DNA from: an uncultured bacterium
Lineage (GTDB): Bacteria > Chlamydiota > Chlamydiia > Chlamydiales > SM23-39
Assembly (NCBI GenBank): GCA_964477585.1
Contig: CAYZHU010000001.1
Coordinates: 7,086 to 42,973 of the forward strand
DNA length: 35,888 nt
Direction: 5' to 3'
Positions within the stretch are counted from its first letter, which is position 1. Each line of letters begins with the position of its first letter. The notes beneath the pieces are model-generated. The model saw only the letters and a program-made list of their open reading frames with translations, had not been told where the DNA came from and made no database searches. The position numbers and the translations under genes were made by a program. This document shows, piece by piece, positions 12,790 through 13,710 of the stretch.

Positions 12790-13710
12790 TTATTGAGGCG
12801 AGATGTCGACAGGAGGATAATTTTCCCAGCCGATCAGATCGAAGTGCCACCATTCGGTAGGGGCTCCCGCAAATCCATGTTTTTCCATGACCATTCGTAG
12901 AAGTTCCCGATTTTTGATCTCTTCTGTATTGGCGCCCATATAGTCTTGATGAGCTTTTTCGCTAAAATCATCAAAGGCGGAAGGCATTGGCAGTTCTTTG
13001 CCTTCTTTTGTGATCAAGGTTAGATCTACCGTAGTCCCTCTAGTGTGGCGCCCTCCTTTTCTAGGATCGCCAACATAGCGCTCATCAGGCACTAGCTCCC
13101 AAAATTTCCATTGCGCTGCAATAGGACGAAATCCATCCCAGATTTTCAATCCTAGTCCCATAGATTCAAGTTCAGCTTGTATATCGCGGAGCCGTAAGGC
13201 AACTTCTTTTAATAATAAGCACTGATGAAAGGTATACACTACCTGTCCTGTGAAATTATCAGCTGTCGCGTATTTCAACTCGACTTGTATTTGAGGAACG
13301 AAGGATTGAATATCTACAAACTCATGATTCATGGCTGAGATCCCCCGATCGATATATTGCTGCTGGAATTGTATCGATGTTTCCATAATTGATCTAAAGG
13401 CAGGAAGGCTAATCTCAATGGGAAGTCCTAATTCAATGGATGTATCAATGATTTTTCTTTCTTGGTCTGCCACTCTTTGCCGGTCATCAGCGATTTTAGT
13501 TGTTTTCGATTTTATATCGCCTGACCGTTTGACATAGGCTGTGCGCTCCGAGAGCAGTTTTAAGATTTCATAGTTGATCCTGTCCATTTCTTTCCGAATA
13601 GAGGGGATATCATGGCAGTTCTGCTTTGCTATCTCATAGTAATAATCTACATTAGAATGCAAATAGCTTATGTTAAAGAGAGTTAATATATAGATTAAAA
13701 TTCGTTTCAT
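12790..13710 (-). CDS. exported fusion protein: AroQ-type chorismate mutase domain + D-alanyl-D-alanine dipeptidase (VanX/DdpX, M15) domain
   Basis: N-terminal signal-like MKRILIYILTLFNISYLHS. Residues about 35-125 carry the AroQ pattern (IRKEMDRINYEILKLLSER..K....D..RE...SIQFQQQ). The C-terminal half carries VanX/DdpX motifs LKYATADNFTG, WDGFRP, GGRHTRGTTVDLTL and EWWHF. Confidence 0.75.
   Translation of the reverse strand: MKRILIYILTLFNISYLHSNVDYYYEIAKQNCHDIPSIRKEMDRINYEILKLLSERTAYVKRSGDIKSKTTKIADDRQRVADQERKIIDTSIELGLPIEISLPAFRSIMETSIQFQQQYIDRGISAMNHEFVDIQSFVPQIQVELKYATADNFTGQVVYTFHQCLLLKEVALRLRDIQAELESMGLGLKIWDGFRPIAAQWKFWELVPDERYVGDPRKGGRHTRGTTVDLTLITKEGKELPMPSAFDDFSEKAHQDYMGANTEEIKNRELLRMVMEKHGFAGAPTEWWHFDLIGWENYPPVDISPQ

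What the first reader, a model, noticed from the sequence alone, without database searches (positions are those of the whole stretch)
12790..13710. Signal-peptide-bearing fusion of an AroQ chorismate mutase domain and a VanX/DdpX D-Ala-D-Ala dipeptidase domain
Seen: one 306-aa ORF carries three parts. (1) A hydrophobic N-terminus, MKRILIYILTLFNISYLHS. (2) An AroQ-like helical segment with residues at the expected catalytic positions (IRKEMDRIN..., SER, IKSK, DQERK, SIQFQQQ). (3) A VanX/DdpX-like domain with YATADNFTG, DGFRP, RHTRGTTVD and EWWH, the motifs that carry the Zn ligands and catalytic Arg/Glu in VanX. Established: both enzyme types normally act on cytoplasmic substrates (chorismate, D-Ala-D-Ala), and exported *AroQ mutases exist in some pathogens with unclear roles. 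Inference: I do not know of this fusion being described. An exported bifunctional protein could act on periplasmic peptidoglycan-precursor fragments or on host metabolites, or the CM-like module could have been repurposed as a binding or dimerisation domain.
Basis: partly seen in the sequence, partly recalled or inferred. Interest (0 to 1): 0.7.

Follow-up and report, generated by a model that had tools for sequence, protein, structure and literature searches.

The report
Exported chorismate-mutase–D-Ala-D-Ala dipeptidase fusion, Chlamydiae
This gene from an environmental chlamydia really does join a chorismate-mutase-type domain to a D-Ala-D-Ala dipeptidase behind one export signal, but relatives show it is a rare fusion of two normally separate exported enzymes that has been broken up again many times.

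Summary
The 306-aa ORF (12790..13710, minus strand) has a signal-peptide-like N-terminus, a CM_2/AroQ domain (45 bits, cutoff 27) and a DdpX/VanX Peptidase_M15 domain (141 bits). It is not an assembly artefact: at least 8 distinct fused sequences were assembled independently from 10 or more samples.

Comparison with relatives changes the interpretation. Environmental Chlamydiae widely carry both modules as separate exported proteins:
- a ~130-aa signal-peptide-bearing short AroQ, 70-85% identical to the domain here;
- a ~210-aa DdpX with its own signal peptide.

The fusion is confined to one clade (25 of 127 DdpX tips). Within it the fusion was undone repeatedly:
- two independent single-base stop codons in the 5-residue linker;
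- three in-frame deletions that remove the CM core but keep the signal peptide;
- at least three 5' truncations.

Both domains are under purifying selection in intact fusions. All VanX catalytic residues are present. The CM domain is most like PchB (profile and fold). It keeps the Arg/Arg/Lys/Asp/Arg/Ser/Gln set but has an invariant Val where E. coli CM has Glu52, as do PchB and the exported M. tuberculosis CM.

Most likely this is a periplasmic two-enzyme protein whose halves work independently. It is a new domain combination of known enzymes, of moderate interest.

The parts
12790..13710 (-). Whole fusion ORF: 306 codons plus stop.
   Evidence: ORF; both Pfam domains; the identical protein P0001 was assembled independently in SRR9179563.
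13654..13710 (-). Residues 1-19, MKRILIYILTLFNISYLHS: a Sec-type signal-peptide-like N-terminus. The likely cleavage site after LHS is inferred.
   Evidence: KR n-region, hydrophobic core with KD 2.2; the same feature is present in 105 of 111 stand-alone CM homologues. SignalP was not run.
13348..13653 (-). Residues 20-121: a conserved N-terminal extension (YYEIAKQNC, with invariant Cys32) plus a three-helix AroQ-alpha/PchB-like CM domain. Pfam CM_2 covers residues 38-117, nt 13360-13599. Active-site candidates are R39, R56, K67, D76, R79, V80, Q83, S112 and Q116.
   Evidence: hhalign to PchB, probability 94.9. Foldseek best hits are PchB chains, TM 0.77-0.87; purifying selection.
13321..13347 (-). 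Residues 122-130, linker RGISAMNHE. The G-[IV]-S-x-M motif is shared with the other fused lineages. In relatives the Met serves as the start codon of split or truncated DdpX genes.
12793..13320 (-). Residues 131-306: DdpX/VanX-type Zn D-Ala-D-Ala dipeptidase domain. R195, H222, D229, E286 and H289 correspond to VanX R71, H116, D123, E181 and H184.
   Evidence: alignment to 1r44; these residues are invariant in the alignment. Foldseek best hit is VanX, E 1.4e-11; omega about 0.05.
13717..15489 (-). Upstream ABC exporter (ABC_membrane + ABC_tran half-transporter). Its stop codon lies 6 nt before the fusion's ATG, so it is probably co-transcribed. An 81%-identical orthologue lies upstream of the fusion in L027-L029.
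   Evidence: no promoter-like or terminator-like site in the gap.
15535..16104 (-). GNAT (Acetyltransf_3) gene at the head of the same-strand gene run. Homologues lie near the fusion in L027, near the CM-deleted form in L012, and overlap a stand-alone CM gene in L025.

Best explanation
This is a genuine, lineage-restricted gene fusion in an environmental chlamydia.

How it probably works:
- One Sec-type signal peptide carries a two-module protein to the periplasm.
- Module 1 is a short three-helix AroQ domain of the PchB/E. coli-CM type. Like all such domains it must pair with a second copy to build its active sites, so the protein is expected to be at least a dimer.
- Module 1 carries a complete cationic and ether-oxygen-binding set (R39', R56, K67, R79, Q116) but has Val at the Glu52 position. 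It probably catalyses a chorismate or isochorismate pericyclic reaction.
- Module 2 is a DdpX-type zinc D-Ala-D-Ala dipeptidase with every VanX catalytic residue.

The two modules most likely work independently. The fusion arose once, or a few times, when the exported CM gene came to lie in frame in front of ddpX and replaced DdpX's own signal peptide. It is tolerated rather than required.

Shown here: the architecture, the conservation, the independent assemblies, the separate exported homologues and the repeated loss.
Inferred: export, dimerisation, both catalytic activities, and the independence of the two halves.
For: Architecture and catalytic residues.

The fusion is real. At least 8 distinct fused sequences come from many samples.

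The modules exist separately elsewhere:
- More than 100 stand-alone ~130-aa signal-peptide-bearing CM proteins are 70-85% identical to the domain here.
- Among the 110 stand-alone chlamydial DdpX hits examined, 90 have an N-terminal extension and 82 of those carry a hydrophobic, signal-peptide-like core.
- The two genes are unlinked in relatives. One genome carries a separate full CM (L018) alongside a 5'-truncated fusion (L010).

Single clade: all fused, remnant, split and deleted forms fall in one 25-tip clade out of 127 DdpX domains. They share the linker motif G-[IV]-S-x-M.

The fusion is labile:
- L026 has TGA where the fused form has the linker Gly codon GGA.
- L032 has TAG where the fused form has the linker Gln codon CAG, directly before the ATG.
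- In-frame CM deletions that keep the CM-type signal peptide: P0247/L012, P0243 and P0250.
- 5' truncations that keep CM or linker remnants: L010, L013 and L031.

Both halves are maintained in intact fusions. The CM part has dN 0.09-0.20 with saturated dS. The DdpX part has omega 0.04-0.06.

PchB-like AroQ-alpha identity: hhalign probability 94.9 and Foldseek TM 0.77-0.87.

Val at the Glu52 position is compatible with activity. It occurs in PchB and in the highly active exported *MtCM (PMC12329711).

Periplasmic precedents: PcgL (PMC3760250) and exported CMs and CM-CDT fusions (PMC10520331).
Against: - No biochemical data exist for any member.
- Export rests on a heuristic, not on SignalP or experiment.
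- The AF2 models are of modest confidence: pLDDT 64-68 overall and about 55 over the CM part of the full-length model.
- The CM domain scores far below the NCBIfam cutoffs for both CM and PchB equivalogs, so its reaction is uncertain.
- Intact fusions persist in several lineages whose synonymous sites are saturated, and the orthologous ABC exporter stays upstream. Some selective benefit of the fusion, or of the locus, cannot be excluded.
- Split and 5'-truncated forms leave DdpX without a signal peptide. Export of DdpX is therefore not universally maintained, which the model does not explain.
- In the NJ tree three DdpX proteins with their own signal peptide (P0011, P0012, P0055) nest inside the fusion clade. 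A single origin is therefore not proven.
Confidence: 0.6

Rival explanations
1. Functionally coupled bifunctional enzyme ('Rosetta stone'). The two modules act in one periplasmic or host-directed process, and fusion improves it. One form of this: the CM dimer scaffolds or regulates DdpX. Another: both halves process metabolites scavenged from a protist host or its bacterial prey.
For: - Both families are widespread and strongly conserved in the same environmental Chlamydiae.
- Intact fusions persist with both halves under purifying selection.
- Split forms keep the two genes adjacent, with stop and start abutting.
- An exported CM fused to a pathway partner has a precedent in the CM-CDT fusions (PMC10520331).
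Against: - In most genomes examined the two genes are unlinked and sit in unrelated neighbourhoods.
- The CM core was deleted at least three times while an exported DdpX was kept. At least three 5' truncations removed the CM module and its signal peptide altogether.
- No chemical link between chorismate and D-Ala-D-Ala metabolism is known (my own knowledge).
- The same CM module also appears fused to unrelated enzymes, though only as singletons.
Confidence: 0.2
2. The AroQ module is not a chorismate mutase here. It could be an isochorismate-pyruvate-lyase-like enzyme. It could instead be a non-catalytic export, dimerisation or ligand-binding module that happens to sit in front of various periplasmic enzymes.
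For: - Its closest sequence, profile and fold matches are to PchB, not to E. coli CM.
- Val is invariant at the Glu52 position. PMC12329711 links Val at this site to isochorismate-pyruvate-lyase (IPL) activity.
- The module is found singly fused to SnoaL, alpha/beta-hydrolase and CMD domains.
- An AroQ-alpha protomer is an obligate dimer (PMC12329711).
Against: - The substrate-binding residues R39, R56, K67, D76, R79, S112 and Q116 are invariant across the family. That argues for catalysis rather than a mere scaffold.
- The family has Ser112 where PchB has its rare Tyr87, which PMC12329711 discusses as a candidate IPL-specific feature.
- *MtCM, which also has Val, is an efficient CM (PMC12329711).
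- The other fusions are single-contig observations.
Confidence: 0.25
3. Dual-product gene. Besides the exported full-length fusion, translation could also start at the conserved linker Met (M125) and give a cytoplasmic stand-alone DdpX.
For: - The linker Met is conserved in the fused lineages that keep the G-[IV]-S-x-M linker.
- It is exactly the start codon used by the split and truncated relatives.
Against: - P0003 and P0242 lack this Met.
- I saw no clear ribosome-binding site upstream when reading the sequence.
- No expression data are available.
Confidence: 0.1
4. Sequencing or assembly artefact that merges two adjacent genes.
For: Closely related contigs do carry the same two modules separated by a single in-frame stop. 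A one-base error could therefore convert one state into the other.
Against: The same uninterrupted ORF occurs in an independent assembly of this very sequence (L006). It also occurs in at least 7 further distinct fused sequences from different projects.
Confidence: 0.02

Closest known systems
PchB, isochorismate-pyruvate lyase of Pseudomonas aeruginosa (AroQ-alpha fold; PDB 2H9D, 3REM)
   Same: - It is the best profile match (hhalign probability 94.9, E 4e-8 over the whole domain).
- It is the best fold match (TM 0.77-0.87, rmsd about 2 A).
- Both have a three-helix protomer.
- Shared sequence features: E-x-C-x-x-[IL]-x-x-IR, YVK and the R-V-A motif. Val sits at the E. coli CM Glu52 position (PMC12329711).
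   Different: - PchB is cytoplasmic, stand-alone, and belongs to a salicylate-siderophore operon.
- This domain has a signal peptide and is fused to a peptidase.
- It has Ser112 where PchB has Tyr87.
- It scores 29 bits against a cutoff of 126 for the PchB equivalog.
Exported AroQ-gamma chorismate mutases (*MtCM Rv1885c and relatives) and the exported CM-CDT fusion enzymes (PMC10520331)
   Same: - A signal-peptide-bearing CM-family domain outside the cytoplasm, of unknown physiological role.
- In the CM-CDT case the CM is fused to a second exported enzyme, and the fusions are very rare.
- *MtCM also has Val at the Glu52 position. The spacing of its listed active-site residues D69/R72/V73/Q76 matches D76/R79/V80/Q83 here. 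This mapping is my inference from residue numbers in PMC10520331 and PMC12329711.
   Different: - AroQ-gamma protomers have six helices and about 170 residues, with one active site per protomer. This domain is a ~100-residue three-helix AroQ-alpha type.
- No AroQ-gamma structure reached E <= 1 in the profile search of PDB sequences.
- The fusion partner here is a peptidoglycan-related peptidase, not the next shikimate-pathway enzyme.
DdpX (E. coli), VanX (Enterococcus; PDB 1R44) and PcgL (Salmonella): M15D D-Ala-D-Ala dipeptidases
   Same: - Peptidase_M15 at 141 bits.
- DdpX equivalog at 175.8 bits against a cutoff of 176.
- All Zn ligands plus the catalytic Glu and Arg are conserved.
- VanX is the best fold match.
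- PcgL is a precedent for a periplasmic enzyme of this kind (PMC3760250).
   Different: - DdpX and VanX are cytoplasmic single-domain proteins. VanX sits in a vancomycin-resistance operon and DdpX in a dipeptide-import operon (my own knowledge).
- Here the domain is exported behind an AroQ module and lies downstream of an ABC exporter.
Stand-alone exported CM (~130 aa) and exported DdpX (~210 aa) of environmental Chlamydiae. Both are database entries only, with no published study found.
   Same: - The CM module is 70-85% identical to the stand-alone CM proteins, and the DdpX module is about 66-87% identical to the stand-alone DdpX proteins.
- The catalytic residues are the same.
- Both stand-alone forms have signal-peptide-like N-termini.
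   Different: They are separate, unlinked genes in most genomes. Here they form one polypeptide behind the CM-type signal peptide.

Membership tests
AroQ / CM_2 (PF01817) chorismate mutase superfamily | Profile match above the curated threshold over the whole domain. | tested here: met
   45.3 bits against a gathering score of 27, profile positions 1-80 of 80.
AroQ / CM_2 (PF01817) chorismate mutase superfamily | All-helical three-helix protomer (AroQ-alpha topology). | tested here: met
   helices 35-67, 74-94 and 98-127. Foldseek matches to PchB and E. coli CM chains at TM 0.76-0.87. The model pLDDT is only 64, so this is supportive rather than strong.
AroQ / CM_2 (PF01817) chorismate mutase superfamily | Cationic and polar active-site set of E. 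coli CM: Arg11', Arg28, Lys39, Asp48, Arg51, Ser84, Gln88. | tested here: met
   R39, R56, K67, D76, R79 and S112 are invariant in 30 family members and Q116 is nearly invariant (at least 90%); all seven, Q116 included, are invariant in the smaller 23-sequence alignment. Note that the hhalign alignment to E. coli CM shifts this loop by 4 residues.
AroQ / CM_2 (PF01817) chorismate mutase superfamily | Glu at the E. coli CM Glu52 position, which binds the 4-OH of chorismate. PMC12329711 describes it as highly conserved in AroQ CMs. | tested here: not met
   Val80 is invariant. It aligns with the Val of PchB and with the Glu of T. thermophilus CM. The same exception occurs in PchB and in the active *MtCM (PMC12329711).
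AroQ / CM_2 (PF01817) chorismate mutase superfamily | Catalysis of chorismate to prephenate. | not testable with these tools
   Needs an enzyme assay or a complementation test.
PchB-type isochorismate-pyruvate lyase (NF005475, TIGR01803) | Score above the equivalog or subfamily cutoff. | tested here: not met
   29.3 bits against 126 (NF005475), and 29.2 against 73.35 (TIGR01803). These are still the best-scoring CM-type models.
PchB-type isochorismate-pyruvate lyase (NF005475, TIGR01803) | Val at position 55 and Tyr at position 87, both discussed in PMC12329711 as features linked to isochorismate-pyruvate-lyase activity. | tested here: inconclusive
   The Val is present (V80). The Tyr is replaced by Ser112, as in E. 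coli CM.
PchB-type isochorismate-pyruvate lyase (NF005475, TIGR01803) | Genomic linkage to an isochorismate synthase or to salicylate-siderophore genes. | not tested
   Only ten neighbouring ORFs between 11720 and 24173 were scanned against Pfam. None is an isochorismate synthase. The rest of the genome is unavailable.
Exported AroQ-gamma chorismate mutases (*AroQ) | N-terminal signal sequence. | tested here: met
   Heuristic only, supported by family-wide conservation of the hydrophobic N-terminus.
Exported AroQ-gamma chorismate mutases (*AroQ) | Six-helix protomer with a rearranged topology and one active site per chain (PMC10520331). | tested here: not met
   The mature CM module is about 100 residues with three core helices. 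The best fold matches are AroQ-alpha proteins.
DdpX/VanX D-Ala-D-Ala dipeptidases (Peptidase_M15, subfamily D) | Profile match above threshold. | tested here: met
   PF01427 at 140.8 bits against 27. DdpX equivalog at 175.8 against 176, a marginal miss of 0.2 bits by the domain alone.
DdpX/VanX D-Ala-D-Ala dipeptidases (Peptidase_M15, subfamily D) | Zn ligands His/Asp/His, catalytic Glu and transition-state Arg (VanX H116, D123, H184, E181, R71). The roles of these residues are recalled from the VanX structure literature. | tested here: met
   H222, D229, H289, E286 and R195 align to those residues. They are invariant in 14 chlamydial homologues.
DdpX/VanX D-Ala-D-Ala dipeptidases (Peptidase_M15, subfamily D) | VanX-like fold. 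| tested here: met
   1r44_A at E 1.4e-11, target-normalised TM 0.65. The DdpX core has pLDDT 80-96.
DdpX/VanX D-Ala-D-Ala dipeptidases (Peptidase_M15, subfamily D) | Hydrolysis of D-Ala-D-Ala, and dipeptide versus pentapeptide specificity. | not testable with these tools
   Needs an enzyme assay.

The most novel reading that the evidence does not exclude
The more novel object may be the family behind the fusion rather than the fusion itself. It is a strongly conserved, signal-peptide-bearing short (AroQ-alpha/PchB-like) chorismate-mutase-family protein, spread across environmental, protist-associated Chlamydiae.

If it is truly exported and active, it would be a previously unrecognised class of exported CM or isochorismate-pyruvate-lyase enzymes, outside the AroQ-gamma subclass. 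It could act on chorismate or isochorismate from hosts that have a shikimate pathway.

Its recurrent in-frame fusion to periplasmic enzymes would make it a modular export-and-dimerisation head. DdpX is the well-supported partner. SnoaL, alpha/beta-hydrolase and CMD partners are seen only as singletons.
Probability: 0.25. Interest if true: 0.7.

Novelty: new variant of a known kind. Interest (0 to 1): 0.45.

Why it matters
Exported chorismate mutases are a long-standing puzzle, because their substrate is made in the cytoplasm. They are studied as virulence or host-manipulation factors. A recent paper treated nine exported CM-CDT fusions as a notable discovery (PMC10520331).

This locus adds three things:
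- a different exported CM fusion, with a peptidoglycan-related dipeptidase as partner;
- a whole chlamydial family of exported short AroQ proteins, which PMC10520331, where exported CMs are treated as AroQ-gamma, does not mention and on which I found no paper in the held library;
- the finding that an exported D-Ala-D-Ala dipeptidase is the norm in environmental Chlamydiae. Chlamydial peptidoglycan biology is unusual, and labelled D-amino-acid dipeptide probes have been used to visualise Chlamydia trachomatis peptidoglycan (PMC4856321).

The intact, split, trimmed and deleted forms among close relatives also give a clean natural example of a gene fusion being made and unmade by single-base changes.

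Because the fusion itself appears dispensable, it probably does not reveal a new pathway.

Tried and rejected
**Artefact hypothesis.** Rejected because of the many independent assemblies.

**Conserved CM-ddpX operon across Chlamydiae.** Rejected:
- Stand-alone CM loci (L003-5, L018-21, L025) have no DdpX within the flanks.
- DdpX loci L014 and L015, which show no trace of the CM module, have no CM within the flanks.
- DdpX loci L012 and L013, which derive from the fusion, have no intact CM domain within the flanks.
- Adjacency is seen only inside the fusion clade, as secondary splits.

**Membership in the exported AroQ-gamma subclass.** Rejected on size, topology and fold.

**The first combined alignment of fused, CM and DdpX sequences (A4).** It mis-aligned the second half of the stand-alone CMs onto DdpX columns. 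I discarded it and used A5 for structure prediction.

**Full-length AF2 model.** It gave no usable CM-domain fold hits. A CM-only model was needed, and both models are of modest confidence.

**dN/dS for the CM part.** A ratio could not be computed because synonymous sites are saturated. Only the low dN is informative.

**Literature searches.** Searches for chlamydial CM, VanX, DdpX or this fusion found nothing.

**Promoter and terminator scan.** It found nothing above the shuffle expectation around the gene. A base-composition profile of 8000-20000 was also run and did not change the interpretation.

**Lipoprotein reading.** I considered it and dropped it, because no lipobox Cys follows the hydrophobic core.

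**Genetic code 25 (TGA = Gly).** The L026 stop falls at the codon that is GGA (Gly) in fused relatives, so I considered this reading. I dropped it as a coincidence: these are Chlamydiae (my own knowledge that they use the standard code), and the second split uses TAG.
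Full report
**1. The observation**

Pfam finds two domains above threshold. CM_2 covers residues 38-117 and the whole 80-position profile, at 45.3 bits against a gathering score of 27. Peptidase_M15 covers residues 128-294 at 140.8 bits. 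NCBIfam's DdpX equivalog scores 175.8 against a cutoff of 176. The best CM-type models are the PchB/isochorismate-lyase and 'CM-like' families, both far below their cutoffs.

A phmmer alignment to VanX (1r44) puts R195, H222, D229, E286 and H289 on VanX R71, H116, D123, E181 and H184. These residues are invariant in chlamydial homologues.

The N-terminus (MKRILIYILTLFNISYLHS) has a basic n-region and a hydrophobic core, with no lipobox. SignalP was not available.

**2. It is not an artefact**

The identical ORF was assembled independently from SRR9179563 (L006). Further fused sequences come from other runs and projects:
- P0002, P0241 and P0251 from the SRR136087xx runs;
- P0003 and P0242 from JGI 3300032008, SRR9043707, ERZ27255633 and JGI 3300047160;
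- P0004 and P0249;
- a GTDB MAG contig that starts inside the linker (L011).

They are 71-82% identical to the window protein, so they are different organisms.

**3. What relatives show**

A search with the whole protein returned thousands of hits. All but the few fused ones are stand-alone chlamydial DdpX proteins, named Parachlamydiaceae, Rhabdochlamydiaceae or 'Chlamydiae bacterium' where a name is given. They are about 200-213 aa and about 66-87% identical to the DdpX half. Most carry their own hydrophobic, signal-peptide-like N-terminus of the form KKW-hydrophobic-LQGEE.

A search with the CM half returned more than 100 stand-alone ~130-aa CM_2 proteins, 70-85% identical to the domain here. 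Each has an N-terminal hydrophobic segment and a conserved extension with an invariant Cys (YYEIAKQNC). The residues R39, R56, K67, D76, R79, V80 and S112 are invariant, and Q116 is nearly so.

The two genes are not neighbours in the loci examined. So the window protein joins two modules that are, as a rule, separate exported proteins in environmental Chlamydiae.

**4. The fusion is confined to one clade and is unstable**

In an NJ tree of 127 DdpX domains, all fused proteins fall in one 25-tip clade. They share a linker motif, G-[IV]-S-x-M.

The same clade contains every kind of breakdown product.

Splits by a single base:
- In L026 the CM gene ends '...IDHLSK-TGA'. The frame continues 'VSQ-ATG-MDQLVD...', against the fused 'HITKGVSQMDQLVD'. 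TGA stands where the fused form has GGA.
- In L032, on a 76-kb contig, the CM gene ends '...ITKGGS-TAG' and is followed directly by 'ATG-MDQLVD'. TAG stands where the fused form has CAG.

In-frame deletions of the CM core that keep the CM-type signal peptide:
- P0247/L012: signal peptide + 'EDTLSWPYERI' + DdpX;
- P0243: signal peptide + 'QPQCIDHSPQGILQM' + DdpX;
- P0250.

5' truncations that leave a stub of the last CM helix or of the linker DNA:
- L010/L001, where the stub sits directly after the kdtA stop;
- L013;
- L031.

The genome that carries the L010 truncation also has a complete stand-alone exported CM on another contig (L018).

In the intact fusions both halves are under purifying selection. 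The CM part has dN 0.09-0.20 with saturated synonymous sites. The DdpX part has omega about 0.05.

**5. What the CM module is**

Profile-profile comparison favours PchB over E. coli CM. The PchB match has probability 94.9 and E 4e-8 over the full domain. The E. coli CM match has probability 67.

A CM-only AF2 model (pLDDT 64) best matches PchB chains at TM 0.77-0.87 and about 2 A rmsd, then E. coli CM. It is therefore a three-helix AroQ-alpha protomer, which must dimerise to form active sites (PMC12329711). It is not the six-helix AroQ-gamma type that PMC10520331 describes for exported CMs.

The residue at the E. coli CM Glu52 position is Val80, and it is invariant. The PchB and T. thermophilus CM alignments and the identical K-to-R spacing all support this assignment. 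The hhalign alignment to E. coli CM shifts the loop by four residues.

PMC12329711 reports that Glu is highly conserved at this site. It also reports that PchB (Val55) and the efficient exported *MtCM (Val73) both have Val, and it links Val to isochorismate-pyruvate-lyase activity. By residue numbers given in PMC10520331 and PMC12329711, the *MtCM pattern D69/R72/V73/Q76 has the same spacing as D76/R79/V80/Q83 here. That mapping is my inference.

At PchB's rare Tyr87 position the family has Ser, as does E. coli CM. The chemistry is therefore probably a chorismate or isochorismate pericyclic reaction. Which one cannot be decided by computation.

**6. Context**

An ABC exporter gene ends 6 nt upstream on the same strand, and a GNAT gene precedes it. 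No promoter-like or terminator-like site separates them.

In L027-L029 an 81%-identical ABC exporter also lies upstream of the fusion. It sits in a cluster of GNATs, a CPT-like kinase, a hexapeptide transferase, an SDR, an APH and hydrolases. This may be inherited synteny within an accessory-gene region. It does not suggest a pathway that links the two modules.

**7. Mechanism and rivals**

Best explanation (confidence 0.6): a Sec-exported, probably dimeric, two-enzyme protein whose halves act independently. It arose when the signal-peptide-plus-CM unit replaced DdpX's own signal peptide, and it is tolerated rather than required.

Periplasmic precedents exist for both halves: PcgL (PMC3760250) and exported CMs and CM-CDT fusions (PMC10520331).

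Rivals:
- a truly coupled bifunctional enzyme (0.2);
- a CM module with a non-CM role, either isochorismate-pyruvate-lyase-like or an export and dimerisation head (0.25, not exclusive with the best explanation);
- an internal start at the linker Met (0.1);
- an artefact (0.02).

One point remains unexplained. Split and truncated forms leave DdpX without a signal peptide, whereas the deletion forms keep it.

**8. Novelty and score**

I found no paper on this fusion, on the chlamydial exported short AroQ family, or on chlamydial DdpX. Source names, where one is given, call the fused proteins simply 'D-alanyl-D-alanine dipeptidase'.

This is a new domain combination of two known enzyme kinds, so I rate it a new variant of a known kind. 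Interest is moderate at 0.45. It is relevant to the open question of what exported CMs do, and it is a neat case of fusion and fission. However, the evidence argues against the fusion revealing a new coupled function.

Noticed in passing
P0253, P0255 and P0274 (no locus; from the representative library): The chlamydial-type signal-peptide + CM module also occurs fused to other C-terminal domains. P0253 has SnoaL (261 aa, 76% identical CM). P0255 has an alpha/beta-hydrolase (407 aa). P0274 has a CMD/AhpD-like domain (326 aa). Each is a single sequence on a single contig, so they may be real rare fusions or errors.
   Followed up: partly
L027:1308-11587 (also L028, L029): In this relative the fusion sits in a cluster of resistance- or detoxification-like genes: two GNAT fusions, a CPT-like kinase, a hexapeptide transferase, an ABC exporter, an SDR, an APH, alpha/beta-hydrolases and an AraC/GyrI-like regulator.
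   Followed up: partly
L025:1748-2699: A stand-alone exported CM gene overlaps by 14 nt a downstream GNAT that is 63% identical to the window's GNAT (15535..16104). This hints at a recurrent CM-GNAT neighbourhood.
   Followed up: no
L019:6001-6306: A chlamydial-type CM, 80% identical, lies on a 253-kb contig of a MAG labelled Acidobacteriota. This could be mis-binning or horizontal transfer.
   Followed up: no
window 13615-13617 (Cys32 codon): A Cys in the extension before helix 1 is invariant in the exported CM family, and it aligns with Cys7 of PchB. Its role, for example a disulfide in an exported dimer, is unknown.
   Followed up: no
P0007 and P0106 (no locus): These are roughly 398-aa M15 proteins, twice the usual length, that match the DdpX domain at 47-49% identity. 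They may be tandem double-domain dipeptidases.
   Followed up: no
JGI 3300047160 contig next to P0242 (no DNA held): The ribonucleotide reductase large-subunit gene nearby has Hint_2 and LAGLIDADG hits, which suggests an intein.
   Followed up: no
window 16213-16617 (+): A SnoaL_2-family gene lies about 2.5 kb from the fusion. This is the same superfamily as the domain found fused to the CM module in P0253.
   Followed up: no
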